DNA from: Nostoc punctiforme PCC 73102 | GTDB taxonomy: Bacteria; Cyanobacteriota; Cyanobacteriia; Cyanobacteriales; Nostocaceae | Length of the DNA stretch: 32,000 nucleotides | Assembly (NCBI RefSeq): GCF_000020025.1 | Contig: NC_010628.1 | Span: 5,610,001-5,642,000, forward strand | Reading direction: 5' to 3' | Shown: positions 5,646 through 31,971 of the stretch, piece after piece | Layout of the letters: each line of letters starts with the position of its first letter | Position numbering within the stretch: position 1 is the first letter of the stretch | Position numbers and translations under genes: made by a program | Notes under the pieces: generated by a model | Told to the model about the DNA's origin: nothing | What the model saw: the letters and a program-made list of their open reading frames with translations, nothing else | The model's database searches: none

Positions 5646-5693
5646 TAATAATTAATTGTTCGCTTGCTCTCCCTACTCCCCACTCCTTACTTT

Positions 5694-8534: not shown

Positions 8535-8535
8535 A

Positions 8536-8567: not shown

Positions 8568-8706
8568 TAAATGACCCTTAGAGATTTACCCTTATTTTAA
8601 GGTCAACGCTGCGTTAATGGCAGTTTTCATGAGGGTTTACCTGAAGTTCGCGGACTCTTTGGCATAGTCTCTCCAAGACTTGAGGCTTCGCTACCGCCCT
8701 TGGCTT

Positions 8707-8762
8707 ACTAATAACTAATGACTAATGACTAATGACTAATGACTAATGACTAAATGGCTAAT
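8707..8762. repeat. STRR heptamer array (ACTAATG x5 plus degenerate flanks)
   Basis: Five perfect ACTAATG units at 8714-8748, ending ~35 nt before the helicase start codon. Confidence 0.85.
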
Positions 8763-8796
8763 CCAAGAATCCTTACATAAAATTTAGGACGAATTA

Positions 8797-10326: not shown

Positions 10327-10360
10327 TCAACAGTTAGAAGTTAATCAATTTTGGATTTTA

Positions 10361-10402
10361 GACTTGTCGTGAGCGTTACTTCGACAACGCTCAGTACAAG
10401 TC
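10361..10402. repeat. Dispersed hairpin repeat (gacttgt..gagcgtt / aacgctc..acaagtc) nested in a TTTTGGA/TCCAAAA inverted pair
   Basis: Imperfect 42-nt palindrome. Its arms match the module cttgtactgagcgtagtcg at 5555-5573. Flanking tttggatttt (10350) and aaaatccaaa (10432) are mutually complementary. Confidence 0.6.
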
Positions 10403-10471
10403 AGTTGAACGATTTTAGATTTTTTCTTCAATCCAAAATCCAAATATAAAATTGGAGAGTTGAGAGTTAAG

Positions 10472-10515
10472 AGTCAAGATTTTGGCTTTGGCTCTTGACT
10501 TTTTGGCTTTTTTGG
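10472..10515 (+). terminator. Candidate intrinsic terminator downstream of the helicase gene
   Basis: An 8-bp stem agtcaaga/tcttgact with a 13-nt loop is followed by ttttggcttttttgg. Confidence 0.4.
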
Positions 10516-10661
10516 TAACTTTTTCTACCAGTTTGCCGGAAGATCAATTAAAGATGCAATGACAAACTGACACTACCAGATTTACTGCCAGGTTGGGAGC
10601 TAGTAGTGTCAGAAATTTGGCCTCCTGTGTTTGGGAGTAGAGATGTTGCATTCCAACGTCT

Positions 10662-11609
10662 CTACAGCCAAGGACGACTAACTAGTTCTAACTCTCCAAT
10701 TTCATCGTCGCTCAATCTCCAGCCCAAAGCACCAGCATTCTGCCGTACTTGTTCGGCTGTCTTCACCCCAGCAATGGGAATAACGTTACCCTGAGCAATT
10801 AACCAGTTAAGAGCAACTTGGGCAGGAGTGCGATCGTATTTTTCCCCGAAGTTACGTAGCAAAGATATGACTGGGGAAATTTTTTGCAGACCTTCTTTCT
10901 TAAATCGCGAGTCTATTTTTCTCGCACCAGTGGGGGTTTCAGCACTATCAATACTGTACTTTCCTGTGAGTAATCCCTGTGCTAAAGGACTGTATGCCAA
11001 GATAGTCACACCCAACTCACGCGCAGTTGCCAAAATACCTTTGCTTTCAATTTGGCGACTGAGTAAAGAATAACGGACTTGGTTTACAGCCAAAGGCACT
11101 CCCCGATCCGCTAATATTTGATGCGCGTCTCGCATTTGCTCTGCTGAGTAATTACTCACACCGACTGCCGCAATTCTGCCCCGCTTCACTTCATCCGCTA
11201 AGGCATTCATCAAAGTTTGTTGACTTAAAAAGAAGGCAAAAGGCCAATGCACTTGATACAGGGCGATTCGCTCAAGTTGTAGCCGTTTGAGGCTGGCTGT
11301 TAAAGCATCAGAGACAGATTGGGCTGTAAATCGCCACGGTACGGGGCCAAATTTTGTGGCGATTTGTACAGGTTGTTGTGTGTGTTGCAGAAATTGCCCT
11401 AAAAATTCCTCGCTCTTTCCCATTCCGTAGATTTCGGCAGTATCAAAGAACGTAATCCCAGCTTCTAAGGCTGCGGTAAAGGCTTCTTGTAACTGTTCTG
11501 GACCGTAGCGATCGCCATAATTCCAAAATAGTTTATCACCCCAAGCCCAAGTGCCTATGCACAAGGGTGTAACAACTGGGCCATTCTGCCCCAATGTGAC
11601 ATTTTCCAC
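10662..11609 (-). CDS. Aldo/keto reductase family oxidoreductase
   Basis: 315 aa. The N-terminus LCIGTWAWGD, FFDTAEIYG, and the LYQVHWP and VGVSNY motifs are typical of the AKR family. Confidence 0.88.
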   Translation of the reverse strand: MENVTLGQNGPVVTPLCIGTWAWGDKLFWNYGDRYGPEQLQEAFTAALEAGITFFDTAEIYGMGKSEEFLGQFLQHTQQPVQIATKFGPVPWRFTAQSVSDALTASLKRLQLERIALYQVHWPFAFFLSQQTLMNALADEVKRGRIAAVGVSNYSAEQMRDAHQILADRGVPLAVNQVRYSLLSRQIESKGILATARELGVTILAYSPLAQGLLTGKYSIDSAETPTGARKIDSRFKKEGLQKISPVISLLRNFGEKYDRTPAQVALNWLIAQGNVIPIAGVKTAEQVRQNAGALGWRLSDDEIGELELVSRPWL

Positions 11610-11752
11610 GGTTGCAAAATTTAGTTTATTTACATTTCTTTACTTTTATAGTGTATCGTTACAGACAAGATTGGGTGTGGGTAAGTTGATCTAGTCTTAT
11701 TAAGGATCTTCACGGTGCGATCGCGATTTAAACCCTGAATCAAACGCGCATA

Positions 11753-11853
11753 AGGGACTTTCAGTTAAAAAAATATCTTGTTGTAGGGACGCAAAGCCTT
11801 GCGCTCCTAAAATCTATAAATAATTTGGGATAATTTATTTTTTGCAAGTCCCT
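11753..11853. mobile_element. MITE-like ~100-bp element with 8-bp terminal inverted repeats (AGGGACTT / AAGTCCCT)
   Basis: Terminal inverted repeats were read directly. An internal near-palindrome agggacgcaaagccttgcgctcct is present, the interior is AT-rich, and there is no coding capacity. Confidence 0.4.
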
Positions 11854-11858
11854 AAACA

Positions 11859-11892
11859 AGATCCCCGACTTCGTAAAAGTTGTCGGGGATCT
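11859..11892. repeat. Hairpin repeat agatccccgac-N12-gtcggggatct
   Basis: Perfect 11-bp stem read directly. It is of the GC-rich stem-loop type that is dispersed in Nostoc-like genomes (from memory). Confidence 0.6.
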
Positions 11893-11952
11893 ACGGGCTG
11901 CAATTCTCACATATCAAATAGGATTGCGATAGTTGAGTGTATTTACTTGTAA

Positions 11953-12177
11953 CTATGAACTAGATGGTTTCTCCTGCTTGACTTTTTTGATTAATTGCAT
12001 GTAGACATTAATTTCACTAATTTCTACATCATGCTCAACTCTGGTTACTTTCCATTTCTCTTTTTTTAGGTAAACTTCCTCTCCTACTCTGGGAGTAAAT
12101 TGAAGATCGTAGAACTTTTTTAGAAAATCTTTTTGATTTTCTTCCCATAATATTACTTTGACTGGTTCTTTACTCAT
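11953..12177 (-). CDS. Hypothetical small protein (74 aa)
   Basis: ATG-initiated ORF in an otherwise non-coding islet. Lys/Glu-rich, and no family was recognised. Confidence 0.35.
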   Translation of the reverse strand: MSKEPVKVILWEENQKDFLKKFYDLQFTPRVGEEVYLKKEKWKVTRVEHDVEISEINVYMQLIKKVKQEKPSSS

Positions 12178-12311
12178 TGCTTATGCCTTTTTGGTTACTA
12201 GATGAAGCTAAGTAGTTTGATGACATATAATACGGCAAGTTTATCTTACTAATTCAATGGAATAGCGTAGTTAAAACCACATTTTCATATTGATATTTTT
12301 ATCTGGCTTGA

Positions 12312-12512
12312 TTACGTCCGATAAAGTTACGGCGCGATACCAGAACTTTAATAAAAGCTACTATTAGATTTACTTTAAAATCTTTTATCAGTCAGGCAGT
12401 ATTTGCTGCTATTTTGGATATAAGTCTATCAACGGTTCAAAAGTGGGAAATCGTTCAGAAGCATCCCAGTGCCAATGCTTTTAAGCTGTTGTATCTAGTT
12501 AAGAAACCATAA
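12312..12512 (+). pseudogene. Remnant of an XRE-type helix-turn-helix antitoxin/regulator gene (no start codon)
   Basis: A stop-to-stop frame gives ...LKSFISQAVFAAILDISLSTVQKWEIVQKHPSANAFKLLYLVKKP*. This resembles the SQAVFA..LGVS..TVQ.WEQG.R.PSGAA..LL core of HigA/COG2944-like antitoxins. There is no ATG/GTG at a sensible position and no partner toxin ORF upstream. Confidence 0.45.
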
Positions 12513-12770
12513 TTGAATAGCGTGATTGATTAAAGGGTTAACCCTGGACGATTTGCATTTATAGTCAGAGTTTCTGCAAAGCTCAATGCTACTAATGATT
12601 TACGCTATAAACACAGCAAAAGATTACACAGCTACTTGATAGGATGTTTTAGAGCGTCGCACTTCTTTCTTCACAATATTTTGAATAAATATCATTATTG
12701 CTACTGATGCGGTTAGCAGTAATAGTTAGTGAAGCTAGAGAAGCATTTGAAGCTTGGATCGCAAAAAATT

Positions 12771-13244
12771 ATGTCTATTCCACAATTTCTTGCTGCTGCT
12801 AATGGCACAGCTCAGTTATGGTCTTCTGCTGACGGACAATTTTTAGGATTGCTATCAAGTGACCGATATGATATGAACTCCATTAGCAATCTTGATGGGA
12901 TTTATGGCAGTTTGCATGACACCTATAGTATTCGTAACCCGCATGGTTTATACGGAGGTATTCATGGAGGGCACAGTTCTTATAATCCTTACTGTGGCAA
13001 ACCACCTGTTGTTTCTTATCAAAATAAAATAGTGTTAGTTATTACTAGAAATACTAGTATTCAAACGAATGGATTACCAATAATTGATCCAGATTTTCTA
13101 TTAGGTGTATACATGCAACTTGGTTATTCACCAAATATATTTTACCCTACATCAACCCCAATGGATAGATTAAATCAAGCTGCTTGCAATACTCAGCAGT
13201 CTTTAAATCAATCAGCAGTAATTATTGCATCCATGTTTCGGTAA
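12771..13244 (+). CDS. Hypothetical protein with Gly/Tyr-rich N..YG..G repeats
   Basis: The tracked ORF starts at GTG 12729; ATG 12771 (MSIPQF...) is the more likely start. It has repeated NLDGIYGSLHDTYSIRNPHGLYGGIHGGHSSYNPY motifs followed by a beta-rich C-terminal part. The family is not identified with certainty. Confidence 0.5.
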   Translation: MSIPQFLAAANGTAQLWSSADGQFLGLLSSDRYDMNSISNLDGIYGSLHDTYSIRNPHGLYGGIHGGHSSYNPYCGKPPVVSYQNKIVLVITRNTSIQTNGLPIIDPDFLLGVYMQLGYSPNIFYPTSTPMDRLNQAACNTQQSLNQSAVIIASMFR

Positions 13245-13710
13245 TTGTTGTGTTATTTGTCTTCTGGAAAGGGAATAATTTCTCAGAGATCGATTACAAC
13301 AGGTGATTTAAAAGCCAAAGTAATAAGTAAAAGCTAGCGAGTTAAGCGTGCCGACGTAGAACAGTAAGTTGATAAAGTGTTTTGAATTTGTTGCTTAATT
13401 TTGCTGAATACTAAAGGTTAGAATTAATTTATTTCTAAAAGTTACTTATTATCTCGTCTAGCTTCTCAGATCCTTTGTCTCGTTCTTTAAAAACAGTAAG
13501 CGCTTGCAAATTTAGGTCAGGTCGATCTACTAGTTCGTTATTCATTAGTAGAAGTGCTATGCAAACTTTAGAGACTGGAGTCCCATCCTACCAAGTCCCA
13601 ACTGCGATGAAGTCATGAGCATTTAAATATGTAAGATTTCGGCGCGATCGCTCTAGAGACCATGAAAAGGCAATTGAGGATTTTAATCAAGCTCTCCTCA
13701 TTTTGCAAAA

Positions 13711-16342: not shown

Positions 16343-16397
16343 GGGGCATTGGGCATGAGACCAATGACCAATGACAAATGACAAATGACTAATAACC
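16343..16397. repeat. STRR heptamer array (GGGGCAT, TGGGCAT, AATGACC/AATGACA/AATGACT)
   Basis: 7-nt periodicity fills the whole gap between the MFS stop and the ATG at 16398. Confidence 0.8.
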
Positions 16398-17204
16398 ATG
16401 AATGATTTTTGGACAACAATTCTAGATTTTGCCCAAACTACCACTACTAGAGTGGGCAAACAGCTAATGCAAGATTTTGGGCAAGTACAGGCTGACCAAA
16501 AAGCTGATGGAAGTTTGGTGACCCAAGCAGATAAATGGGCAGATCGGGAAATTCGGGATGCGATCGCTTCTACTTTCTCTGGTTACGGCATTTTGAGCGA
16601 AGAGAGCGATCAGTCTTTTCCCGGTACTGAGTGGTGCTGGGTAATTGACCCTCTAGATGGTACAACCAACTTCACACGCGGTATTCCCATTTGGACAATA
16701 TCTCTGGGTTTACTATATCGAGGTACACCAATTTTTGGGTATGTTTACGCACCAACTTTGAATCAAGCTTTTCATGGTTTCTGGGCAGGTTCATCTGGTT
16801 TAGCAACACCAACAGGAGCATTTCTCAACCACCACCCCATCCACACTAGTATTGATAGTCCCAGCAACAATCACTTTTTTAACCTCTGTTCCCGTAGTAC
16901 CGCAGCTATCAAAAACGGCTTTCCCTGCAAAATTAGGATGTTGGGTGTAGCTAGCTATAATTTTTTGACAGTTGCTACTGGGGCTACTCTCGGTGGGATT
17001 GAGGCGACACCAAAAGTTTGGGACTTAGCCGGGGCTTGGGTAATTGTTCAGGCTGCTGGTGGGGTATGGGCATCGCTTAAATCAGAACCGTTTCCGTTGT
17101 CATCGGGAGAAGATTATAGCGATCGCTCTTTTCCCACTTTGGTTGTCAGTCGTCCCGAATTAGTTCCGGTATTTCAACCTTTTCTAGATGGTGTAAAAAT
17201 CTAA
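16398..17204 (+). CDS. Inositol monophosphatase family protein
   Basis: 268 aa with the IMPase metal-binding motifs LSEES and WVIDPLDGTTNF, plus a WD.AAG-like motif (WDLAGAWVIVQAAGG). Confidence 0.88.
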   Translation: MNDFWTTILDFAQTTTTRVGKQLMQDFGQVQADQKADGSLVTQADKWADREIRDAIASTFSGYGILSEESDQSFPGTEWCWVIDPLDGTTNFTRGIPIWTISLGLLYRGTPIFGYVYAPTLNQAFHGFWAGSSGLATPTGAFLNHHPIHTSIDSPSNNHFFNLCSRSTAAIKNGFPCKIRMLGVASYNFLTVATGATLGGIEATPKVWDLAGAWVIVQAAGGVWASLKSEPFPLSSGEDYSDRSFPTLVVSRPELVPVFQPFLDGVKI

Positions 17205-19055: not shown

Positions 19056-19060
19056 AAATA

Positions 19061-19090
19061 GTTAAGAGTTATGAATTAAGAGTTAAGAGT
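19061..19090. repeat. STRR heptamer array (GTTAAGA-type, ~4 copies)
   Basis: 7-nt periodicity just after the ADH stop codon. Confidence 0.65.
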
Positions 19091-19412: not shown

Positions 19413-19456
19413 ATTAGGAATTAGAAGTATATTAACTCCTAACTCCTAATTCCTAG
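19413..19456. repeat. Inverted heptamer pair (taggaattag / ctaattccta)
   Basis: 10-bp complementary arms separated by ~21 nt, located between chlG and the downstream small gene. Confidence 0.6.
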
Positions 19457-20525: not shown

Positions 20526-20540
20526 AATTTTTACTGATTA

Positions 20541-20660
20541 ATTGGGAATTGGGAATTGGGAATTGGGCATTGGGCATTGAGAATTGGGCATTGATGATTA
20601 ACTTTTCCCCATTCCCTACTCCTTATTTCCCATGCCCCATGCCCTATGCCCCATGCCCAT
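20541..20660. repeat. Two opposed STRR arrays (ATTGGGA/ATTGGGC x8 versus CCCCATG/CCCTATG-type) forming a long potential hairpin
   Basis: The heptamers at 20541-20596 are largely complementary to those at 20607-20660. Confidence 0.8.
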
Positions 20661-22483: not shown

Positions 22484-22534
22484 TGGTGTGGAAGTTTTGA
22501 GGATTGACAGCAAAAGCATGATAGAAGAAATTGC
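22484..22534 (+). repeat. Duplicated wzm-wzt junction, copy A
   Basis: ~43 of 49 aligned positions from 22486 are identical to 25254-25304. The match includes agttttgaggattgacagcaaaag, the ATG, and gaagaaattgc. Confidence 0.85.
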
Positions 22535-23756
22535 AATTCCCATCAAAAATCGTTTAGATGCACTAACTGCTCTGCGTGGTTTTGCATGTTTAATGGTAGT
22601 AGTTATTCACTGCAATCCTCCGAGAAATGCGATTTTTTATAAAGGTTACGATCTGAGTTAGCTAACATTTAGTTCCGGGCTGGTAGGTGTCTGGATTTTC
22701 TTTTCTCTGTCAGGATACTTAATGGGTAAAGCTTTTTACACTAAACGTTACACTGCTGATGTCCCAGGAGTTATCAATTTTTGGCGTAACCGATTGTTGA
22801 GAATCTGTCCTCTCTATTATTTTGCTGTATTGATTTCGGCTCTATTCGTTTATACCGATATTCTTAAAATAGAAAACTGGGGATATTTGTTTAGAATAAT
22901 TACGTTTACATACAATCATTCATTGCCACCAATATGGAATGGAGCGATGTGGTCTTTGTCAACAGAAGTACAGTTCTACATACTTGTTCCTTTCTTATAC
23001 ACTTTTCTATTACATCGTTTAGTCAGTAGAAAAGAGATTGTGGTTACATCTATTCTCATCATTTCTATTACTTTTTTTGTCAAGCTTATATTTTGGATTA
23101 CTTTCCGACATCAAATTAGTGAAGAACTTAAATATTTTAATAAATATTCCTATACTCAATTAGTGACAAACATGGATTTGTTTTTATGTGGTTTTATCGT
23201 TAATGGATTACTTTTTTATCAAAGCAAAATAATAACTAACTTTAAAAAGATTAAAGTCAATCAAACATATATGAAATATTTAGCTATTGTTTTGCTCATA
23301 ACTCTTTATATATTGACTGCTCATCATTTATACCATCAAGAGCTATGGAATTTACCAGAGCGTGCTGGCAAAGGTATGAGGACATCTACAACCTTTTTTA
23401 TTTGGCAACCAATAACTGCACTAATCACATCTTTTTTCATATTTGCATTTGAGTTTGACATTTATCAAGCTTCAATAAAAAATGAAGTTTTATCATTTAG
23501 CGTTATTTTAAGAAATCCATTAAGAGTAATGGAGTTGTTTGGGAATTTATCCTATGGTGTCTATATATGGCACATGCCAATTATCGCAAAAATTAATCCT
23601 ATATTTACATCACAAATTCCTATTGAGGCATTTTATATGAGATTAATTGCTACTCTTCTTTTATCAACTTTGTTAGCATCTATTACATATTTTGTAATAG
23701 AAATTCCATGCAGTAGGTGGAAGACCTACCAAAAGATTGAAATTGGAAACAATTAG
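22518..23756 (+). pseudogene. Acyltransferase family 3 (OafA/YrhL-like O-acyltransferase) interrupted by an in-frame TAG at 22659-22661
   Basis: ATG 22518 is in frame with the tracked ORF 22722-23756. The upstream part encodes MIEEIAIPIKNRLDALTALRGFACLMVVVIHC..., the typical acyltransferase_3 start. After the single TAG the frame continues LTFSSGLVGVWIFFSLSGYLMGKAF. The protein is polytopic, and the DNA is AT-rich (spot count 17 G+C in 23161-23220). Confidence 0.75.
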
Positions 23757-24252: not shown

Positions 24253-25131
24253 GTGAACAAGGAAGCGACAATTGTACGAACGATCCGAAGTTTTGTACGT
24301 AAAGCAGGTAATATAAGGCGAATCCTGCCGATAAATGAACGGTTGTGGGCAAAGTTTGACTTGCTGAGAACTTTGGTGCGTCGGGATTTAGAGGCGCGTT
24401 ACAAGGGTTCTGTTTTGGGCAACTTGTGGCCTTTGCTAAATCAGCTATCACAGTTACTGATTTATACTTATGTTTTTTCCACCGTGCTGAAGGTGAAGCT
24501 AACTACTCTCAAGGGTTTACCAGCAAACGATTTCACCTTTGGTTTGTGGCTATTTGCAGGGTTACTTCCTTGGATTGCTTTTACGGGTGGTTTAATGCAG
24601 TCCGCTAATTCGGTACTTGGACAACCGAATTTAGTCAAGAAGGTGGTGTTTCCCCTAACTTTATTACCTCTAGTGCCAGTTTTGTCAACATTCATCGAGA
24701 GTTCTTTTGGTTTAATGGCATTGATTTTTTTCGTGGCGGTAAATACTCATACTTTACATGCTACCTTAGCGCTACTACCCTTGGTTTGGCTAACGCAGTT
24801 ATTGCTAACAGCAGGGTTAGGCTATTTAGCAGCAGCGCTAACGGTGTTTTTGCGAGATATTCCGCAGACTTTAGGAGTGATTTTAAATATTTGGTTTTAT
24901 GTGACACCCCTTGTTTATCCAGCATCAGCAATTCCAGAACAATGGCGGAGTTTGGTATTCTGGTTAAATCCAATAGCAGCGATCGCTGAAGTTTATCGTG
25001 ACATAGTTTTAGTTGGAGAAGTCAAACACTGGGGCGAGTGGGGAGTTTCCTCGCTAATTGCAGTTGTAGTGTTTTTTGGGGGATTGTGGTGTTATCGCCG
25101 CCTGCGTCCAGCATTCGCCGATGTATTGTGA
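24253..25131 (+). CDS. wzm: ABC-2 type polysaccharide export permease (Wzm/TagG-like)
   Basis: 292 aa with a GTG start. It has the LVRRDLEARYKGSVLGNLWPLLNQL signature and six hydrophobic helices, and sits directly upstream of the cognate ATPase. Confidence 0.85.
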   Translation: MNKEATIVRTIRSFVRKAGNIRRILPINERLWAKFDLLRTLVRRDLEARYKGSVLGNLWPLLNQLSQLLIYTYVFSTVLKVKLTTLKGLPANDFTFGLWLFAGLLPWIAFTGGLMQSANSVLGQPNLVKKVVFPLTLLPLVPVLSTFIESSFGLMALIFFVAVNTHTLHATLALLPLVWLTQLLLTAGLGYLAAALTVFLRDIPQTLGVILNIWFYVTPLVYPASAIPEQWRSLVFWLNPIAAIAEVYRDIVLVGEVKHWGEWGVSSLIAVVVFFGGLWCYRRLRPAFADVL

Positions 25132-25253: not shown

Positions 25254-25304
25254 TAGTGTGTGAGTTTTGAGGATTGACAGCAAAAGTATGGGTGAAGAAA
25301 TTGC
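25254..25304 (+). repeat. Duplicated wzm-wzt junction, copy B
   Basis: See 22484-22534. This copy contains the functional wzt start. Confidence 0.85.
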
Positions 25305-26634
25305 TATTTCCCTTAAGAATGTCTCGAAGTGTTTCAAACGGTATAGCCGACCTGTAGATAGGCTAAAAGAAGTTTTGCTACCTGGTAAGAGTAGAACAGA
25401 TGAATTTTGGGCACTTCGGGATATCAACATTGAGATTCCCAAAGGACAAACAGTTGGAATCGTTGGACGCAACGGTTCTGGAAAAAGTACATTGCTACAA
25501 ATTATAGTGGGAACCCTCACACCATCCAGTGGTGATGTGCGAGTCGTAGGTCGAGTTTCTGCTTTATTAGAATTAGGAAGTGGTTTTAACCCAGAGTTTA
25601 CTGGCAGGCAAAATGTCTTTTTTAACGGACAATTGCTAGGATTAAGTCAAAAACAAATCGAAGACAGATTTGATGATATTGTCGCTTTTGCCGATATCGG
25701 CGATTTCATCGAGCAACCTGTTAAAACTTATTCTAGTGGGATGTATGTCCGCTTGGCATTTTCTGTTGCAGTCAATGTCGATCCAGAGATTTTAATTGTT
25801 GACGAAGCACTTGCTGTTGGAGATGTTGTATTTCAACATCGTTGTATGCGGCGAATGCGTGCAATGATGGATTCTGGAGTTACAACATTATTTGTTTCCC
25901 ACGATTCAGGTGCCATCAAAACATTGTGTAATTCAGCCGTGATGATTCATGACGGAAAAATACATACGACAGGATTGCCTAATACCGTTATAATTGAATA
26001 TTTAAAATTAGTTACAGAACTTGAATTAGGTTTAGCACAAGATATTACAGTTAACTCCCAACAGCAAGTAAATCCTGTTGTAGATAACGCAATACAAGCT
26101 TCAGATTCTCCAAATTTTGATATTGAATCTCCGAGTTCCAATTTCAGCAAGGCAACACGCAGAGGAAGTGGAAAAGCCAGAATCGAAAGCGTAAAAATCC
26201 TGAATCAATTAGGTCATTATGCTGGCGAAAGTCCAATCTTTGCATTTAATGAAGAAGTAACATTAATTGTAAATTTAAAAGTTTATTACACCATCAAAAG
26301 TTGTATTGTTGGCTTTCATGTATGTGACAAAAATGGTAATGAGGTAATTGGTAGCAATACTTTAGAAGAAAATATCAAAATAGATAAATTAGAATCAGGG
26401 GAAGAAATAGAAATTAAGTTTAAATTTAATTTACCTCTTCGACCTAGTTCTTATAGCTTAACAGTTGCTGGGGCTGAAAGCTATGAATCTCTTAGCTTTG
26501 ACTGGATTGATAATATAATGGTTTTTCAAATTTTACCCCCAGACACTGGAAAGCTCATTCATGCTTTAGTCCATCAACCGATGGTTGTTAAAGTAAACAA
26601 AAAAGTTTTACCAACTGTAGTGACACCAGCTTAA
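25288..26634 (+). CDS. wzt: Polysaccharide ABC exporter ATP-binding protein (Wzt/TagH-like) with a C-terminal glycan-binding-type extension
   Basis: ATG 25288 (MGEEIAISLKNVSK) is preferred over the tracked TTG 25267. It has Walker A GRNGSGKST, the signature YSSGMYVRL, and Walker B ILIVDEAL. An extra ~150-aa beta-rich C-terminal domain (ARIESVKILN...FDWIDNIMVFQI) sits where Wzt carries its O-PS cap-binding domain. Confidence 0.85.
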   Translation: MGEEIAISLKNVSKCFKRYSRPVDRLKEVLLPGKSRTDEFWALRDINIEIPKGQTVGIVGRNGSGKSTLLQIIVGTLTPSSGDVRVVGRVSALLELGSGFNPEFTGRQNVFFNGQLLGLSQKQIEDRFDDIVAFADIGDFIEQPVKTYSSGMYVRLAFSVAVNVDPEILIVDEALAVGDVVFQHRCMRRMRAMMDSGVTTLFVSHDSGAIKTLCNSAVMIHDGKIHTTGLPNTVIIEYLKLVTELELGLAQDITVNSQQQVNPVVDNAIQASDSPNFDIESPSSNFSKATRRGSGKARIESVKILNQLGHYAGESPIFAFNEEVTLIVNLKVYYTIKSCIVGFHVCDKNGNEVIGSNTLEENIKIDKLESGEEIEIKFKFNLPLRPSSYSLTVAGAESYESLSFDWIDNIMVFQILPPDTGKLIHALVHQPMVVKVNKKVLPTVVTPA

Positions 26635-26662: not shown

Positions 26663-29600
26663 ATGAATAAAGATTGGTCAAAAGATTATCCATCGGCTGA
26701 AAATCTTACAGAAGAAGGTTTGGGGGAAAACCACGTTTTGAGGAAAATGCTAAACCTCATTGGAGACAATCAGCGAGTAGTAGACTTTGGGTGTGCGACT
26801 GGTTACTTTGCTCAGTTACTTAGTAGAAAAGGCTGTATTGTCACAGGAGTAGAGATAAATCCAGATGCTGCTAAAGTTGCCGAAGAGTACTGTAAAGAGG
26901 TAATAGTTGCCGACTTGGATTTTGTTTCTGTTACAGAAATATTGCCTAGCCAGGAGTTCGATGTTGCAGTGTTTGGAGATGTTTTGGAACATCTGCGAAA
27001 CCCTTGGAGAATTTTGGAAGAAACCAAGCAGATATTAAAAAAAGATGGATATGTAGTTGCTTCTATTCCAAATATTGCTCACGGTGCAATTCGCTTATCT
27101 TTACTACAAGGTAAATTTGAATATACAGAATTAGGGATTTTAGATAATACTCATCTGAGGTTTTTTACCAGAAAAACGGTTGAGGAGTTATTTGAAATAC
27201 CAGGATATTTAGTAAATATTGCCGATCGGACAAAACTAGAAGTTTTTTCAGAGAGTTCTTTGATACCTCAAAATAAGAGAGAACAATTCGACAGTAATAC
27301 TATTAAACAAATTGAAGAAGATAAAGATGCTGACACTTTACAGTTTATTATTCGGGCAGATCCTTGGACTATAGAAGGAGAATATGCTGCAATGAGCGAA
27401 GGCTTCTCTAAGCTGTTGGAAGAATCGGAGCAATTGAAATCTCAACTGCATTCAACACAAGCAGAACTGGATCAAGCCCAAGCTCAATTACAGGAGAATC
27501 AGCTTCAGTTGGAGCAATCGCAGTCTCATCTACAGCAAACCCAGACAGAATTGGAGCGATCGCAGTCTCATCTACAACAAACCCAGACAGAATTGGAGCG
27601 ATCGCAGTCTCATCTACAGCAAACCCAGACAGAATTGGAGCGATCGCAGTCTCATCTACAGCAAACCCAGACAGAATTGGAGCGATCGCAGTCTCATCTA
27701 CAGCAAACCCAGACAGAATTGGAGCGATCGCAGTCTCATCTACAGCAAACCCAGACAGAATTGGAGCGATCGCAGTCTAAATTAATATATGCTCAAACTT
27801 ATATTACCGCAATGCAAACCAGTAAATTCTGGAAGTTAAGGACAGCTTGGTTCAGAGTTAAGGGTTTCCTGAATTTGGCTCCCGCCTCAGAAATGTTTAC
27901 ACATAACAACGAGTTAAACATAGTTAATAAAACAGAAGATATCCTGAAAACTTCTAACTCTCTTCAAGAAGATTTATCCACTGATAACAGGTTAAAAATG
28001 TTTGCTTTTATTAGTGGGTGTCCGGGAGATTCTTATCGTTATCGATGTCATCATCAAGCGGAAATCCTAAAGTACCTTGGCTATACAGTTGATGTATATG
28101 AACCAATGGTATTTTTATACAATGAACTTATCACTAAATATAAAATAATTATTGCTCATCGAGTTCCCCATACTGACGAATTTGAACAGTTTGTTTTCAA
28201 TGCGGAAAAACTAGACATAAAAGTTATTTTTGATACTGACGACTTAGTGTTTGATCCATCCCGTATTTCTCAAATTCATGCTTGTACGCTAATGGATCAA
28301 CAAGAGAAGACACTATACGAAAATGGAGTAAAGCGATATCGTAAATCCATGTCTTTATGTGACTACATAACAGTAAGTACCAACAAACTCCAGCAAGAAA
28401 TAGAACAAAGTTTTCCTAATAAAGTTTCGATAATTTTACGCAACCGTATAAGTAATGAGATGGAACAAGGAGCAATCGAAGCTCGTAAGAGTTATGTTCC
28501 TAATGATGGGATGCTTCGGATTGCCTATTTTAGTGGTACTAAAACACATGTTAAAGATTTTGCAGAATGTGTTTTAGCCTTAAAAAGCATTCTCACAGAA
28601 TTTCCTTATGTCCGCCTCATGGTAGTTGGACATCTGGATATCCCAGAAGCATTACAGGAAGTTGCCTCACAAATAGAGTGTGTTCCATATATGCCTTGGA
28701 GAGATTTACCAAAATTGTACCGGAAAGTTGATATTAACCTTGCACCCTTGGAAAAAAATAATGACTTTACTGAATCAAAAAGTGAACTCAAATATTTTGA
28801 AGCAGCGCTTTTATCTGTCCCAACAATTGCTTCGGATACAAGTAGTTTTCGTTTCGCTATTCAAGATGGAGTTAATGGACTACTGTGTAATAATTTGGAT
28901 GAATGGAAAGATGCTCTGTATCAACTGGTAACTAACCAGAAGTTGAGACAGGAAATGGGGCATAAAGCCTTTGAAGATGTAAATTCTCGCTATTTGACAC
29001 GGATTGCAGCCTCAGAAAGTATGCAGAAGTGGAAATATTTATTGGGGGGAAGTTTATCACCCAATAAACCTCTTTCAATTGCTTTTATTCTGCGAGCGCC
29101 GATTGCTCAAACGGGTGGAGGCTATAAGCATATTTTTAATTTAGCTTATTATCTGGCAGCTAAAGAACACACTGTCAATATCTATATTGAACCAATTGCT
29201 CATCTAACCAATTTTACTACTGAACAAGTAAGAGATTTTTGCGAGGAGAATTTTGGGAAGAGTAATGCTATCATTCATTGTGGTCATGCTGGAATTTTAG
29301 AATCAGATATAGCGATCGCTACAAATTGGCCTACAGCTTATGTTGTTGAGCAACTAGTTAATACCCGATTCAAAGCATACTATGTTCAAGATTATGAACC
29401 TTACTTTTATAAATCTGAAGAGGCTAACTTTACTCAAGCAGAAGCCACTTATAATTTACCTTTAAATATAATTACTTTAGGCAAGTATTTGGCAGAGGTA
29501 TTGAGCCAAAGAAATAAAATTGACTATCCGTATGTAGATTTTCCTTTAGGTGAAGTATTTTTAGCTGAAAATCCTATTTTGGATCGTCATTTAAGTACAA

Positions 29601-30121
29601 CAAAACCTTGTTCAATACTATTTTTTGCTCGTCCTCATATCCCCAGGCGTAATTTTACTTTGGGAGTAGAATCATTAAATAAATTGTATCAGCACAATTC
29701 TGATGTGCAAATCAAGTTGTATGGACTGGAAGAAGATTTAGAACTTCCATTTCCTTACGAAAATTTGGGAGTTTTAACTCAAGCTGAAACAGCAGAAGCA
29801 ATGCGCTCATCTGATATACATCTATCTTTTTCTATGACAAATATAAGCACAGTTGTTTTTGAAGCAATGGCTTGTGGCTGTGCCACAGTCGAAGTGGATG
29901 TACCTCCAGTACGATCAATGGTTAAGGAAGGAACTTGTCTATTATGTGAACCTAATTCACAAGCTGTTTTTAATGCATTAATGGATCTCATAAATAATGC
30001 TGGAATGAGGCAAAATATTGCTACATCCGGCTATGAATCAGTGAAGGATCTAACGTTACAAAATATGTGTCTGAAATTTGAGAAAATTCTTATGGAATAT
30101 AGCTTTAGAGTTAAAAGTTGA
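26663..30121 (+). CDS. Multidomain glycan assembly protein: SAM methyltransferase, long coiled coil, amphipathic segment, GT-B glycosyltransferase, and a WsaF-like GT-B glycosyltransferase
   Basis: 1152 aa. The methyltransferase motifs are VVDFGCATGYF, FGDVLEHL and KKDGYVVASIPN. A Q/E/L-rich helix spans ~aa 236-385 and includes 6x SQSHLQQTQTELER. It is followed by MQTSKFWKLRTAWFRVKGF. The first GT module carries ESKSELKYFEAALLSVPTIAS, and the second carries FFARPHIPRRNF and VVFEAMACGCATVE. Confidence 0.85.
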   Translation: MNKDWSKDYPSAENLTEEGLGENHVLRKMLNLIGDNQRVVDFGCATGYFAQLLSRKGCIVTGVEINPDAAKVAEEYCKEVIVADLDFVSVTEILPSQEFDVAVFGDVLEHLRNPWRILEETKQILKKDGYVVASIPNIAHGAIRLSLLQGKFEYTELGILDNTHLRFFTRKTVEELFEIPGYLVNIADRTKLEVFSESSLIPQNKREQFDSNTIKQIEEDKDADTLQFIIRADPWTIEGEYAAMSEGFSKLLEESEQLKSQLHSTQAELDQAQAQLQENQLQLEQSQSHLQQTQTELERSQSHLQQTQTELERSQSHLQQTQTELERSQSHLQQTQTELERSQSHLQQTQTELERSQSHLQQTQTELERSQSKLIYAQTYITAMQTSKFWKLRTAWFRVKGFLNLAPASEMFTHNNELNIVNKTEDILKTSNSLQEDLSTDNRLKMFAFISGCPGDSYRYRCHHQAEILKYLGYTVDVYEPMVFLYNELITKYKIIIAHRVPHTDEFEQFVFNAEKLDIKVIFDTDDLVFDPSRISQIHACTLMDQQEKTLYENGVKRYRKSMSLCDYITVSTNKLQQEIEQSFPNKVSIILRNRISNEMEQGAIEARKSYVPNDGMLRIAYFSGTKTHVKDFAECVLALKSILTEFPYVRLMVVGHLDIPEALQEVASQIECVPYMPWRDLPKLYRKVDINLAPLEKNNDFTESKSELKYFEAALLSVPTIASDTSSFRFAIQDGVNGLLCNNLDEWKDALYQLVTNQKLRQEMGHKAFEDVNSRYLTRIAASESMQKWKYLLGGSLSPNKPLSIAFILRAPIAQTGGGYKHIFNLAYYLAAKEHTVNIYIEPIAHLTNFTTEQVRDFCEENFGKSNAIIHCGHAGILESDIAIATNWPTAYVVEQLVNTRFKAYYVQDYEPYFYKSEEANFTQAEATYNLPLNIITLGKYLAEVLSQRNKIDYPYVDFPLGEVFLAENPILDRHLSTTKPCSILFFARPHIPRRNFTLGVESLNKLYQHNSDVQIKLYGLEEDLELPFPYENLGVLTQAETAEAMRSSDIHLSFSMTNISTVVFEAMACGCATVEVDVPPVRSMVKEGTCLLCEPNSQAVFNALMDLINNAGMRQNIATSGYESVKDLTLQNMCLKFEKILMEYSFRVKS
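27518..27778 (+). repeat. Tandem 42-bp repeat, 6 full copies plus 9 bp, in frame within the coiled coil
   Basis: The units begin at 27518, 27560, 27602, 27644, 27686 and 27728. I see only one substitution (cag to caa in unit 2). Each unit encodes SQSHLQQTQTELER and contains one HIP1 site (gcgatcgc). Confidence 0.95.
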
Positions 30122-30185
30122 ATTAAGTATAAATAAAGAAGGAAGCTATTGATTTTAAGTTTAAAAGTTGGAGTCAGTAGAAAAG

Positions 30186-30920
30186 ATGATTACTAGAGTA
30201 GATTATCAGTTAAATCGCTTGCAATTTTTAAATAAATTAGTGAATTTAGAAAATGCAGAAGGTTTAGAAATAGGAGCTTGCGATTTACCAACTGTTACCA
30301 AAGAGGTTGGCAAATGTGAGTTTGCCGATTTTCGTTCATCGGAAGAAATGATTGCTCTTTGGAACCTTCCTGCTGAAACAGTAATGCCGATCAAATATAT
30401 TCTCCAAAGAGATATTAAAGTTCACCTTCAAATTCACAAAAAATTTGATTTTGTAATTCTCTGTCATGTAATTGAGCATATTCCTAATGTAATTAGCTAT
30501 ATTAAAGATTTACATAATTTGCTGAAACCAGGAGGACTCCTAATTATTGCCTGTCCAGATAAGAGAATAACTTTTGATGCTTCAAGACCCTCAACCACAA
30601 TAGAACACTTACTCGACGATTATTACAATAACTGTAATTATCCTTCATTAGAACATATCTTGGAATTTGGCAAAGTTATATCTGAAGATTTAAAGCAGAA
30701 AAGCATAAAATCACCTAAAGAGTTTTATAAATGGGGATGCGAAAATTTTGAATCTGGATTTGCAGATCCTCATTGCCACGTTTGGACAGATGAAGAGTTT
30801 TTCACTCAAATGGAATACTTGATCGATGGGGATATTATTGAAGGCTTGGAAATTGTTGATAAACAATACAATGATGGTGCTTATAATGAATTCCTTATCG
30901 CTTTCAAATCTTCTGAATGA
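30186..30920 (+). CDS. Class I SAM-dependent methyltransferase (stand-alone)
   Basis: ATG 30186 is preferred over the tracked TTG 30168. It has LEIGACDLP (motif I-like), FDFVILCHVIEHIPN, and LKPGGLLIIACPDK (post-II/III region). Confidence 0.7.
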   Translation: MITRVDYQLNRLQFLNKLVNLENAEGLEIGACDLPTVTKEVGKCEFADFRSSEEMIALWNLPAETVMPIKYILQRDIKVHLQIHKKFDFVILCHVIEHIPNVISYIKDLHNLLKPGGLLIIACPDKRITFDASRPSTTIEHLLDDYYNNCNYPSLEHILEFGKVISEDLKQKSIKSPKEFYKWGCENFESGFADPHCHVWTDEEFFTQMEYLIDGDIIEGLEIVDKQYNDGAYNEFLIAFKSSE

Positions 30921-31041: not shown

Positions 31042-31971
31042 ATGAAGTCTCAGTATAAGATAGCAGCTTATATAACTGCTTATGAAGATCCAAAAGCAGT
31101 TATGGATTGTCTTAATGCTATTGCTTGCCAATCCTCCTTTGCGATTGACAAGTTGCTGATATTAGATAACTCCACAAAAAAGCCTTTATTGCATCTCACA
31201 AATAAAGAAAATATTTTAATCAAGTTTCATCCAGAAAATATAGGAATTGCGGCAGGATTAACTTGGGCAATCAAATGGGCTATCGAACAAGAATATGACT
31301 TTTTATGGTCTTTTGATCAAGATAGTGTTCCGGCTGCAAACTGTCTAGAAATTTTGCTGAAAACTTATTATCAATTGTCTCAACAAGATAATTATAAAAT
31401 TGGCATTATTGCTCCTACTCCTTCTGATCCTAGAACGAGTAAGGTTATAGAAGGTGCAGTTTTTTTTAACGATCATTTTCTAGCGCTTAAACATAATAGT
31501 AGTGTTGATTTTTATGAATGTGATTCACCGATTACATCAGGATCTCTAATTTCATTAGCTGCCGCTAAAACCATTTCTCCTCCTTGTGTTGACTTATTTA
31601 TTGATGGTATTGACCTTGATTATGGATTGCGATTAAGGCAAAAGGGCTTTCATAACCTAATTGCTACTAAAGCTATTATGCACCACAATTTTGGTAGTCC
31701 TATTCAAGTAAAATTTATGAATAAATATCGCTACATCCAACAATATTCAGCTTTACGTTATTACTATATCTGTCGTAATCATAGTTATTTGGAAACTCGC
31801 TTTTCTCAAGGTTACTATCACTTCACTAGCTTAATGCGGCGAATAAAATATATGCTGCTTCAAATTCTTTTTATTATGCTATATGATTTAGAAGATAAAC
31901 AATTAAAAATATGGGCTTGTTTATTAGGGACTTATCGGGGCTTAATTGGAAATATTAGTAAAACTTGGTAA
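31042..31971 (+). CDS. Glycosyltransferase family 2 protein (rhamnosyltransferase-like)
   Basis: 309 aa. The N-terminal AAYITAYED...LDNSS-type region, the DQDS acidic motif (FDQDSVP) and IDGIDLDYGLR are typical of GT2 GT-A enzymes in O-antigen loci. Confidence 0.8.
   Translation: MKSQYKIAAYITAYEDPKAVMDCLNAIACQSSFAIDKLLILDNSTKKPLLHLTNKENILIKFHPENIGIAAGLTWAIKWAIEQEYDFLWSFDQDSVPAANCLEILLKTYYQLSQQDNYKIGIIAPTPSDPRTSKVIEGAVFFNDHFLALKHNSSVDFYECDSPITSGSLISLAAAKTISPPCVDLFIDGIDLDYGLRLRQKGFHNLIATKAIMHHNFGSPIQVKFMNKYRYIQQYSALRYYYICRNHSYLETRFSQGYYHFTSLMRRIKYMLLQILFIMLYDLEDKQLKIWACLLGTYRGLIGNISKTW

What the first reader, a model, noticed from the sequence alone, without database searches (positions are those of the whole stretch)
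27518..27778. Coiled-coil 'ruler' built from six near-identical 42-bp units: a potentially copy-number-tunable length module
Six head-to-tail 42-bp units plus a 9-bp partial unit, with a single substitution that I can see, encode SQSHLQQTQTELER x6. 42 bp equals 14 aa, exactly two heptads, so gain or loss of a unit keeps both the reading frame and the coiled-coil register. Each unit would change helix length by about 2 nm (14 x ~0.15 nm). Near-perfect DNA identity implies very recent expansion or ongoing concerted evolution. Each unit also embeds a HIP1 octamer (GCGATCGC), a sequence associated with recombination/repair in cyanobacteria. Inference: slipped-strand or unequal recombination could generate population heterogeneity in glycan chain length, e.g. 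for phage or grazer evasion. That would be a contingency-locus mechanism acting on a molecular ruler rather than on an on/off switch.
Basis: partly seen in the sequence, partly recalled or inferred. Interest (0 to 1): 0.7.

Follow-up and report, generated by a model that had tools for sequence, protein, structure and literature searches.

The report
Repeat-built coiled-coil spacer in glycan enzyme
A Nostoc punctiforme enzyme that builds and caps a cell-surface sugar chain has a rod-like spacer encoded by six near-identical 42-bp repeats, and relatives carry different repeat numbers, so the spacer thought to set chain length appears to evolve in fixed steps of about 2 nm.

Summary
There are six 42-bp units at 27518-27769 plus a 9-bp partial unit, with one synonymous substitution. 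The array is in frame in a 1152-aa ORF of Nostoc punctiforme PCC 73102.

The ORF reads methyltransferase, about 134-residue heptad-perfect helix (Leu at d, Gln at a), conserved SKFW motif, then two glycosyltransferase modules. It sits directly after wzm and a wzt that carries a Wzt_C cap-binding domain. This is the known terminator/coiled-coil ruler/polymerase format (WbdD, WbbB, Klebsiella O7 ORF6, WsaE).

What is new is how the ruler is built. Orthologues whose flanks are 96-99% identical carry 4, 5 or 6 units, each with strain-specific homogenised variants (His, Asn or Gln codon). In 73 of 99 family members the spacer length is ≡ 4 mod 7, forming a 7-residue ladder from 67 to 235 aa. Among close pairs with different spacers, 72 of 74 differ by multiples of 7. 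Microcystis and other Nostoc lineages show the same unit-number variation.

HIP1 is incidental, because arrays without it expand too. The effect on chain length and any within-population "contingency" switching remain untested. Several unit counts come from short-read drafts.

Verdict: a real feature and a new variant of a known kind.

The parts
24253..25131 (+). wzm, the ABC-2 permease of the glycan exporter
   Evidence: Pfam ABC2_membrane, E 7.8e-22. It occupies the same position in orthologous loci.
25267..26634 (+). wzt, the ATPase with a C-terminal Wzt_C carbohydrate-binding domain (the cap-recognising type)
   Evidence: Pfam ABC_tran E 6.8e-22 and Wzt_C E 3.7e-32 at aa 296-435.
26663..30121 (+). 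1152-aa multidomain protein (ACC82896.1 / WP_012410857.1): methyltransferase, coiled coil, SKFW motif, GT4 module, WsaF-like GT module
   Evidence: ORF; Pfam domains; exact-sequence look-up gives Nostoc punctiforme PCC 73102.
26747..27196 (+). N-terminal class I SAM methyltransferase domain (aa 29-178), the inferred chain-capping module
   Evidence: Pfam Methyltransf_23 E 3.9e-21. The best solved relative is 3cc8, E 4.6e-34. Similarity to the WbdD methyltransferase domain is weak, E about 2e-3.
27404..27805 (+). Heptad-periodic helix (aa 248-381, about 20 nm if straight), the candidate ruler
   Evidence: The register is uninterrupted, with Leu at d in 17 of 21 positions and Gln at a in 18 of 20. 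AlphaFold2 predicts a single helix over aa 234-405, with block-mean pLDDT 90-97 over about aa 251-380, for the isolated segment.
27509..27778 (+). 42-bp tandem array, 6.4 copies (six full SQSHLQQTQTELER units at 27518-27769), one HIP1 per period
27809..27871 (+). Conserved basic-aromatic motif A-x-Q-x-SKFWKxRxxWF (aa 383-403) at the proximal end of the helix; candidate membrane or partner anchor
   Evidence: These are nearly the only invariant residues of the whole linker region in the alignment of eight full-length homologues. In stand-alone methyltransferase/coiled-coil relatives the motif lies about 20 aa from the C-terminus. The simple hydrophobic moment is low, so an amphipathic membrane helix is not shown.
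27995..29032 (+). First glycosyltransferase module (GT4 type, aa about 445-790)
   Evidence: Pfam Glyco_trans_1_4 E 5e-25 and Glycos_transf_1 E 6.5e-19; alternating strand-helix secondary structure in the model.
29075..30103 (+). Second glycosyltransferase module (WsaF-like rhamnosyltransferase type, aa about 805-1147)
   Evidence: Pfam WsaF_N and WsaF_C (E 2.2e-6 and 3.1e-13) and Glyco_trans_1_2. PDB WsaF 2x0e, E 1.5e-6.
30168..30920 (+). Second, stand-alone methyltransferase of the cluster
   Evidence: Pfam Methyltransf_23 E 1.9e-11; conserved in orthologous loci.
31042..31971 (+). GT2 glycosyltransferase of the cluster
   Evidence: Pfam Glycos_transf_2 E 2.5e-6. In orthologous loci it is followed by a GT2, a GT4 and rmlA/C/D-type genes.

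Best explanation
The array encodes the central part of a long heptad-perfect helix, most likely a parallel homo-oligomeric coiled coil. In one polypeptide this helix separates an N-terminal methyltransferase from two C-terminal glycosyltransferase modules.

The gene belongs to a wzm/wzt (Wzt_C) cluster with dTDP-rhamnose genes. The protein is therefore most likely a combined polymerase and terminator of an ABC-transporter-dependent, methyl-capped, rhamnose-containing surface glycan (O-antigen-like). In this model the helix holds the capping domain at a set distance, about 20 nm, from the polymerase, so that only chains of sufficient length get capped and exported. This is the WbdD / WbbB / Klebsiella O7-ORF6 'molecular ruler' logic.

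The particular feature here is that the ruler is a minisatellite. Its 42-bp (two-heptad) units are gained, lost and homogenised by slipped-strand mispairing or unequal recombination. Related strains therefore carry rulers that differ by whole units (about 2.1 nm each) without breaking frame or heptad register.

What is shown:
- the anatomy of the protein and the locus context;
- the heptad continuity;
- unit turnover between strains;
- the family-wide 7-residue length quantisation.

What is inferred:
- the oligomeric state;
- that the N-terminal methyltransferase is the terminator;
- that spacer length sets modal chain length;
- the nature of the glycan.
For: 1. Architecture. The protein has a methyltransferase, a helical region, a GT4 module and a WsaF-like GT module. 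wzm and wzt with Wzt_C lie immediately upstream. Orthologous loci continue with a methyltransferase, GT2, GT2, GT4 and rmlA/C/D-type genes.

2. Literature. The coiled-coil ruler is described as 'a characteristic marker' of terminators in this pathway. K. pneumoniae O7 ORF6 is methyltransferase(-kinase)/coiled coil/two GTs, and cyanobacterial orthologues are noted (PMC11231755). In WbdD, insertions and truncations of the coiled coil raise and lower modal chain length (PMC5082667). WsaE is an N-terminal capping methyltransferase plus two rhamnosyltransferase domains, with the gene order wzm-wzt-wsaE (PMC2943079).

3. Helix. The heptad register is uninterrupted from F248 to I381, with Leu at d in 17 of 21 positions and Gln at a in 18 of 20. 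The isolated segment is predicted as one 172-residue helix with pLDDT above 90.

4. Turnover. Proteins in the same 90%-identity cluster are 1124, 1138 and 1152 aa long. At the DNA level the arrays have 4 units (FACHB-133), 5 units (LEGE 12447 and metagenome Ga0335394) and 6 units (PCC 73102 and SO-36), with strain-specific CAT, AAT or CAA variants in most or all units; UIC 10630, seen as protein only, also has 5. Flanks are 95.5-99% identical between strains. Units are 98.4% identical within PCC 73102 but only 85-91% identical between strains.

5. Family-wide pattern. The spacer between the LQF and SKFW motifs ranges from 59 to 238 aa. It is ≡ 4 mod 7 in 73 of 99 proteins and in 20 of 41 distinct lengths (binomial p = 1.6e-7). 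Among close pairs with different spacers, 72 of 74 differ by a multiple of 7. In 102 of 112 linkers the best internal period is a multiple of 7. Unit-number series also occur in Microcystis (1-7 units) and in Nostoc 2RC versus ZfuVER08 (9 versus 3 units).

6. Modularity. The same coiled coil/SKFW/polymerase unit is fused to three methyltransferase types, a sulfotransferase or an extra GT. Stand-alone methyltransferase/coiled coil/SKFW proteins also exist.
Against: - No experiment or read-level data link spacer length to glycan length in any cyanobacterium.
- The oligomeric state could not be modelled. The full-length monomer model has low confidence (mean pLDDT 64.9) and breaks the helix at residues 311-314, so a fold-back hairpin is not formally excluded.
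- The core is half polar (Gln at a), which is weaker than in classical coiled coils.
- The two orthologues from finished or complete genomes (PCC 73102 and SO-36) both have six units. The 4- and 5-unit counts come from short-read drafts that may collapse identical units. Short-read contigs demonstrably break at such arrays.
- Mutational bias toward whole-unit slippage could explain part of the mod-7 signal without any selection.
- A second methyltransferase in the cluster (30168-30920) could be the true capping enzyme.
- The SKFW motif is not clearly amphipathic.
Confidence: 0.6

Rival explanations
1. Neutral minisatellite in a tolerant linker. The helix only oligomerises or tethers the domains, its exact length does not matter, and unit gain or loss is selectively neutral slippage in a repetitive, Gln-rich sequence.
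For: Spacer length varies widely, from 59 to 238 aa across the family and from 67 to 179 aa within the Microcystis group. This is what a weakly constrained length would look like. Whole-unit slippage automatically preserves frame and heptad register, so the unit-sized steps alone do not need selection.
Against: Both mod-14 classes are populated: 48 proteins at 11 mod 14 and 25 at 4 mod 14. Internal periods of 7, 14, 21, 28, 35 and 42 residues occur, and almost none is outside multiples of 7. Register is therefore maintained beyond what slippage of one unit size would give. In the experimentally studied systems, coiled-coil length does change chain length.
Confidence: 0.25
2. Contingency locus. 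The array mutates fast enough to keep clonal populations heterogeneous in ruler length, giving bet-hedging against phages or grazers.
For: Units in PCC 73102 are 98.4% identical, with four consecutive units fully identical. This is the best substrate for slippage among the orthologues. Arrays differ between close strains. O-antigen is a cyanophage receptor in Anabaena (PMC4390846).
Against: No read-level or population data were available. The unit is 42 bp and there are only six copies, unlike classical 1-9 bp contingency repeats (general knowledge). Draft-assembly counts are uncertain.
Confidence: 0.1
3. HIP1-driven expansion. The GCGATCGC octamer in each unit is the cause of the array's instability or homogenisation.
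For: There is one HIP1 per period in PCC 73102 and in the 11.5-copy array of Nostoc sp. P10160.
Against: The 8.8-copy, 96%-match array of N. linckia z4 has no HIP1 in its units (LEHSQ). Four of the five units of the metagenome orthologue (LEQSQS, GAGCAATCGCAG), three of them identical, also lack it. The Microcystis units (LLESSQSELQQTKG) encode no Arg-Ser junction. HIP1 is simply the local coding of E-R-S-Q in a genome with about 0.9 HIP1 per kb.
Confidence: 0.05
4. Assembly artefact. The six-copy count is not real.
For: A short-read Logan contig of the same sequence breaks about 10 nt 3' of the array. Metagenome contigs start or end inside related arrays.
Against: The 270-bp array is shorter than a Sanger read, and the PCC 73102 genome is, from general knowledge, a finished Sanger-era assembly. 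The exact 1152-aa protein is the deposited ACC82896.1. The complete SO-36 genome also shows six units.
Confidence: 0.02

Closest known systems
K. pneumoniae O7 ORF6 and O12 WbbB (single-polypeptide terminator / coiled-coil ruler / polymerase)
   Same: A terminating module sits at the distal end of an extended coiled coil, with two GT modules C-terminal to it. The gene lies in a wzm/wzt cluster with rml genes. The coiled coil is regarded as the chain-length ruler (PMC11231755).
   Different: - There is no kinase or CBM domain between the methyltransferase and the coiled coil.
- The GT modules are GT4 and WsaF-like rather than GT2.
- No sequence match to WbbB appeared in the PDB search.
- The ruler here is a near-identical tandem DNA array with strain-to-strain unit turnover. 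I found no report of this for those systems.
E. coli O9a / K. pneumoniae O3 WbdD
   Same: Methyltransferase-containing terminator, about 20-nm coiled coil, proximal anchoring region, and a Wzt CBM that reads the cap. Experimental insertions or truncations of the coiled coil change modal length.
   Different: WbdD is a separate protein that recruits the WbdA polymerase and also has a kinase domain. Only weak methyltransferase-domain similarity is seen (E about 2e-3). Stand-alone methyltransferase/coiled coil/SKFW relatives of the Nostoc protein are the closer analogue of that format.
Geobacillus stearothermophilus WsaE (S-layer glycan)
   Same: An N-terminal capping O-methyltransferase plus two rhamnosyltransferase domains in one protein. 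The gene order is wzm-wzt-wsaE, rml genes lie downstream, and there is a WsaF-type GT (PMC2943079; Pfam WsaF domains).
   Different: The review describes no coiled-coil ruler for WsaE and states that an additional length-determining factor may be needed.
Intragenic VNTRs that change protein length (streptococcal M protein coiled-coil repeats, yeast FLO1; general knowledge; concept reviewed in PMC3899988)
   Same: In-frame near-identical units, copy-number variation between strains, concerted evolution within arrays, and a graded rather than on/off phenotype expected.
   Different: Those repeats are in surface-exposed adhesins or antigens. Here the repeat is in a cytoplasmic enzyme spacer, and its length would act indirectly on a polysaccharide.

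Membership tests
Coiled-coil-ruler terminator proteins of ABC-transporter-dependent glycan assembly (WbdD / WbbB / ORF6-O7 kind) | Encoded in a cluster with the wzm/wzt exporter | tested here: met
   wzm at 24253-25131 and wzt at 25267-26634 lie directly upstream. The arrangement is conserved in four orthologous loci.
Coiled-coil-ruler terminator proteins of ABC-transporter-dependent glycan assembly (WbdD / WbbB / ORF6-O7 kind) | Wzt carries a C-terminal carbohydrate-binding module that recognises the terminal cap | tested here: met
   The Wzt_C domain is present, E 3.7e-32. Only its presence is shown; ligand binding is not testable here.
Coiled-coil-ruler terminator proteins of ABC-transporter-dependent glycan assembly (WbdD / WbbB / ORF6-O7 kind) | A chain-terminating catalytic module at the distal end of an extended coiled coil | tested here: inconclusive
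   The methyltransferase domain at aa 29-178 is followed by a heptad-perfect helix at aa 248-381. That this methyltransferase caps the chain is inferred from WsaE, WbdD and ORF6.
Coiled-coil-ruler terminator proteins of ABC-transporter-dependent glycan assembly (WbdD / WbbB / ORF6-O7 kind) | Polymerase GT modules, or their recruitment site, and a membrane anchor at the proximal end | tested here: inconclusive
   Two GT modules follow the helix. The conserved SKFW basic-aromatic motif sits at the junction, but it has a low hydrophobic moment.
Coiled-coil-ruler terminator proteins of ABC-transporter-dependent glycan assembly (WbdD / WbbB / ORF6-O7 kind) | Parallel homo-oligomeric coiled coil | not testable with these tools
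   Only monomer predictions were available. Conservation of heptad phase across the family is consistent with it.
Coiled-coil-ruler terminator proteins of ABC-transporter-dependent glycan assembly (WbdD / WbbB / ORF6-O7 kind) | Changing the coiled-coil length changes the modal glycan chain length | not testable with these tools
   This needs LPS or glycan profiling of natural or engineered alleles.
WbdD sequence family (orthology) | Methyltransferase plus kinase catalytic domains homologous to WbdD | tested here: not met
   There is no kinase domain. WbdD chains match only the methyltransferase core, at E 2e-3 to 4e-3.
WsaE-like trifunctional methyltransferase-rhamnosyltransferase | N-terminal O-methyltransferase plus two GT domains, downstream of wzm-wzt, with rml genes in the cluster | tested here: met
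   Architecture and gene order are shown; the WsaE description comes from PMC2943079. Sequence identity to WsaE itself was not tested because its sequence is not held.
Intragenic VNTR / minisatellite under concerted evolution | In-frame tandem units that are more alike within an array than between orthologous arrays, with copy number differing between strains | tested here: met
   Mean unit identity is 98.4% within PCC 73102 versus 85-91% between strains, while flanks are 95.5-99% identical. Arrays have 4, 5 or 6 units. Caveat: the 4- and 5-unit counts come from draft assemblies.
Contingency (hypermutable, phase- or size-variable) locus | Repeat-number heterogeneity within clonal populations at high frequency | not testable with these tools
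   No reads were available. The short-read contigs simply break at the array.

The most novel reading that the evidence does not exclude
Cyanobacteria encode the chain-length ruler of their ABC-transporter-dependent surface glycans as a heptad-quantised minisatellite. Unit gain and loss would then provide a natural allelic series within species (Nostoc 3-11 units, Microcystis 1-7 units) that tunes glycan modal length in steps of about 2 nm. This would be an evolvable 'tuning knob' acting on a molecular ruler, possibly under diversifying selection by phages or grazers.
Probability: 0.35. Interest if true: 0.75.

Novelty: new variant of a known kind. Interest (0 to 1): 0.6.

Why it matters
The coiled-coil ruler model for O-antigen length rests on engineered insertions and deletions in two enterobacterial systems. 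If the cyanobacterial arrays do what the model predicts, nature has already made the allelic series. Strains with near-identical enzymes but 4, 5, 6 or more two-heptad units should show stepwise shifts in glycan modal length.

That would make the ruler hypothesis directly testable outside Enterobacteria, in a genetically tractable organism (N. punctiforme). It would add a quantitative, repeat-driven mode of surface-glycan diversification to the known on/off phase variation. It could also matter for phage and grazer susceptibility and for symbiosis in Nostoc and bloom-forming Microcystis.

There is a practical point as well. These arrays break or collapse short-read assemblies, so ruler lengths in draft genomes are unreliable.

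Tried and rejected
- Array-peptide search (81 aa) against the 5.8-billion-protein set, to see whether the unit also occurs in unrelated proteins. It gave only 3 short hits, probably because of composition-bias correction, so it was uninformative.
- Genome-contig scan with the protein. It gave 5 loci, and the only full-length orthologue was already known.
- Metagenome-contig scan. It gave 3 loci: one was a duplicate, one starts inside an array and one ends inside an array.
- Exact look-up of the window protein in the gene-position index. It is not on record.
- Full-length AlphaFold2 model. Confidence was low (mean pLDDT 64.9, pTM 0.34), so I ran no fold searches on it. Its helix break at 311-314 is not reproduced in the isolated-segment model.
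- Amphipathic-helix test of the SKFW motif with the Eisenberg hydrophobic moment. Values were low (0.12-0.25), so I describe it only as a conserved basic-aromatic motif.
- Mod-7 test on more distant methyltransferase-domain representatives. The signal is weaker, 10 of 31. Anchors are less reliable there and the linkers are much longer.
- Attempts to read Hagelueken 2015 and Williams 2017. Neither is held, so I relied on PMC11231755 and PMC5082667 for their content.
- Literature searches for natural tandem-repeat variation of such rulers. They found nothing.
- Rfam and tRNA scans of the window. Both gave no hits.
Full report
**Observation**

The 42-mer TCGCAGTCTCATCTACAGCAAACCCAGACAGAATTGGAGCGA occurs six times head to tail at 27518-27769. 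Five copies are exact. One has a single G->A change at 27577, which is a synonymous CAG->CAA. None is expected in shuffled sequence.

A 9-bp partial unit follows, ending at 27778. Tandem Repeats Finder places the array at 27509-27778: period 42, 6.4 copies, 98% matches, score 526. The nine extra upstream bases carry one more mismatch (CAA for CGA).

The array is in frame in ORF 26663-30121 (+, 1152 aa) and encodes SQSHLQQTQTELER six times. GCGATCGC occurs once per period, at 27556 and then every 42 bp to 27766. The window has 35 HIP1 sites in total, 29 of them outside the array. No ORF of 60 aa or more overlaps the array on the other strand. No Rfam family or tRNA is found anywhere in the window.

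**Source and gene**

The exact protein is ACC82896.1 / WP_012410857.1 of Nostoc punctiforme PCC 73102. Pfam finds the following:
- a class I SAM methyltransferase at aa 29-178;
- only coiled-coil-type noise hits across about aa 240-420;
- a GT4 module (best stretch aa 617-770);
- a WsaF-like GT module (aa 878-1128).

Directly upstream are wzm (24253-25131) and wzt (25267-26634). The wzt product carries the Wzt_C carbohydrate-binding domain (E 3.7e-32). Downstream are a second methyltransferase and a GT2. In orthologous loci the cluster continues with GT2, GT4 and rmlA/rmlC/rmlD-type genes.

By sequence, the methyltransferase domain is closest to the unpublished structure 3cc8 (E 4.6e-34). The last module matches WsaF (E 1.5e-6). 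WbdD matches only weakly (E about 2e-3), and there is no kinase domain.

**The helix**

With L262 set as a d position, the heptad register runs without a break from F248 to I381. Leu is at d in 17 of 21 positions and Gln at a in 18 of 20. The 14-residue unit is therefore exactly two heptads. Two older, diverged 14-residue periods precede the array.

AlphaFold2 on the isolated segment (aa 211-445) gives one continuous helix over aa 234-405, with block-mean pLDDT 90-97 over roughly aa 251-380. The full-length monomer model is poor (mean pLDDT 64.9). It breaks the helix at residues 311-314, which I read as a monomer fold-back artefact, although I cannot exclude a hairpin.

At about 0.148-0.15 nm per residue, aa 248-381 would span about 20 nm and one unit about 2.1 nm (arithmetic on standard helix geometry).

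The helix ends in a motif (A383, Q385, S387-K-F-W-K391, R393, W396, F397). These are nearly the only invariant residues of the linker region among eight full-length homologues. In shorter relatives that consist only of methyltransferase plus helix, this motif lies about 20 residues from the C-terminus, which is where WbdD has its membrane and polymerase-recruitment region. Its simple hydrophobic moment is low, so I call it a candidate anchor only.

**What is known about this kind of protein**

Kelly et al. [quoted passage not shown] The terminating module sits at the distal end. Formats range from WbdD (terminator only) to WbbB and O7 ORF6, where methyltransferase(-kinase), coiled coil and two GTs are in one chain. 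The paper mentions cyanobacterial orthologues of the ORF6 N-terminus.

For WbdD, insertions and truncations of the coiled coil raise and lower modal chain length, and the coiled coil is about 200 Å long (PMC5082667).

WsaE of Geobacillus is an N-terminal capping methyltransferase plus two rhamnosyltransferase domains, encoded after wzm-wzt (PMC2943079).

The Nostoc protein therefore fits a known kind by architecture and context. It is not a WbdD orthologue.

**Relatives: unit turnover**

The 90%-identity cluster of the protein has members of 1124, 1138, 1138, 1138 and 1152 aa, plus a C-terminally truncated SO-36 protein. The arrays at the DNA level are as follows:

| Strain or source | Units | Composition |
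|---|---|---|
| PCC 73102 | 6 | all CAT (His) |
| FACHB-133 | 4 | three AAT (Asn) units plus one diverged SQSQLRQTQAK unit |
| LEGE 12447 | 5 | four Asn units plus the diverged unit |
| JGI metagenome contig | 5 | all Asn, with GCG (Ala); four of the five lack HIP1 |
| N. cf. commune SO-36 | 6 | mostly CAA (Gln), one His unit, plus the diverged unit |

Flanking gene sequence is 95.5-99% identical between strains. Mean unit identity is 98.4% within PCC 73102 but only 85-91% between strains. Units have therefore been homogenised or re-expanded independently since these strains diverged. PCC 73102 and the metagenome allele have also lost the diverged terminal unit.

Two other lineages show 14-aa steps: 1070, 1084 and 1098 aa in one, and 1139 and 1153 aa in the other.

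Caveat: PCC 73102 (finished) and SO-36 (complete) both have six units. The 4- and 5-unit counts come from short-read drafts, which can collapse identical units. A Logan contig of PCC 73102 reads and two metagenome contigs break at such arrays. The differences in unit type cannot be assembly artefacts.

**Relatives: family-wide quantisation**

I measured the spacer between the LQF motif that ends the methyltransferase region and the SKFW motif in 99 homologues.
- The spacer ranges from 59 to 238 aa.
- It is ≡ 4 mod 7 in 73 of the 99 proteins.
- It is ≡ 4 mod 7 in 20 of 41 distinct lengths (binomial p = 1.6e-7 against 1/7).
- Those lengths form a ladder: 67, 74, 81, 88, 95, 102, 109, 116, 123, 130, 137, 144, 151, 158, 165, 179, 193, 200, 207, 235.
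- Both mod-14 classes are populated (48 and 25 proteins), so single-heptad steps also occurred.

Among pairs whose N-terminal domains are at least 88% identical but whose spacers differ, 72 of 74 differ by a multiple of 7. In 102 of 112 linkers the strongest internal period is a multiple of 7.

Other lineages show the same behaviour:
- A Microcystis group with 92-100% identical methyltransferase domains has spacers of 67, 95, 123, 137, 151, 165 and 179 aa, built from 1-7 copies of LLESSQSELQQTKG.
- Nostoc sp. 2RC and Nostoc sp. ZfuVER08 carry 9 and 3 copies of LEHSQFQLQDTQAQ.
- At the DNA level there are 42-bp arrays of 11.5 copies (Nostoc P10160), 8.8 copies (N. linckia z4), 5.1 copies (CCY 9925) and about 5 copies (a Nodularia MAG).

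The signal weakens in more distant representatives with much longer linkers, to 10 of 31.

The family is also modular. The same helix, SKFW motif and GT4-WsaF polymerase is fused to three different methyltransferase types, a sulfotransferase or an extra GT. This is what interchangeable terminators on a common ruler-polymerase chassis would look like.

**HIP1**

HIP1 here is simply GAG-CGA-TCG-CAG (E-R-S-Q) in a genome with about 0.9 HIP1 per kb. Arrays that lack it are equally long and homogeneous. Examples are N. linckia z4, the metagenome LEQSQS units, and the Microcystis units, which lack the Arg-Ser junction that codes HIP1 here. I found no support for a causal role.

**Best explanation and its limits**

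The array is the young, homogenised core of a heptad-perfect spacer in a combined polymerase-terminator for a methyl-capped, probably rhamnose-containing, exported glycan. The spacer most likely works as the chain-length ruler described for WbdD and WbbB. Its minisatellite construction lets its length change in two-heptad steps that preserve register.

Anatomy, context, turnover and quantisation are shown. The following remain inferred:
- the oligomeric state;
- which methyltransferase is the terminator;
- any effect of spacer length on chain length;
- the identity of the glycan (O-antigen or another surface glycan).

The main rival is a neutral minisatellite in a tolerant linker. It explains the wide length range but not the maintenance of heptad phase across unit types and periods. 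High-frequency contingency switching is possible but entirely untested.

**Novelty**

The ruler kind is known. I found no report of rulers built from variable tandem repeats, or of heptad-quantised ruler length ladders, in the held literature. I rate this a new variant of a known kind, with moderate to high interest because it gives a ready-made natural allelic series to test the ruler model.

Noticed in passing
window 22488-23756 (+), stop codon at 22659-22661: The acyltransferase_3 gene at the head of the glycan cluster is interrupted by an in-frame TAG where Nostoc cf. commune SO-36 has Trp (DLS*LTF versus DLSWLTF). It is likely a pseudogene or a truncated product in PCC 73102. FACHB-133 and LEGE 12447 lack the gene altogether.
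   Followed up: partly
window, intergenic: 5527-5554, 5624-5646, 8536-8567, 8707-8762, 16359-16398, 19060-19090, 19433-19455, 20540-20593, 20629-20658: There are many short arrays of 7-bp tandem repeats between genes (for example ACTAATG x7.9, AATTGGG x7.7, GACCAAT x5.7). They resemble the heptameric STRR repeats known from heterocystous cyanobacteria (general knowledge).
   Followed up: no
L003 (Nostoc cf. commune SO-36, AP025732.1), locus coordinates 6001-13293: Several genes of the orthologous cluster are split or truncated in this complete genome. The methyltransferase/coiled-coil/GT protein ends early at 1077 aa, and the stand-alone methyltransferase, a GT2 and a GT4 are each in two pieces. 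This reflects either real decay of the cluster or indel errors in a long-read assembly.
   Followed up: no
proteins P0003, P0005, P0008, P0009, P0012 (relatives, not in the window): The same coiled coil/SKFW/GT4-WsaF polymerase is fused to different N-terminal modules: two other methyltransferase types, a sulfotransferase, an additional GT1 domain, and an unannotated domain of about 400 aa. This suggests swappable chain-terminating chemistries.
   Followed up: partly
L005 (Logan SRR12750589_294) 1-30; L012 1-200; L013 2300-2502: Short-read contigs begin or end at or inside these 42-bp arrays. Ruler lengths, and even gene models, in draft cyanobacterial assemblies are therefore unreliable. One example is a 769-aa 'protein' that starts at the internal Met after the array.
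   Followed up: partly
window 1538-3748 (-): A CHASE2-PAS-GGDEF sensor diguanylate cyclase lies about 20 kb upstream of the glycan cluster. No link to the cluster was examined.
   Followed up: no
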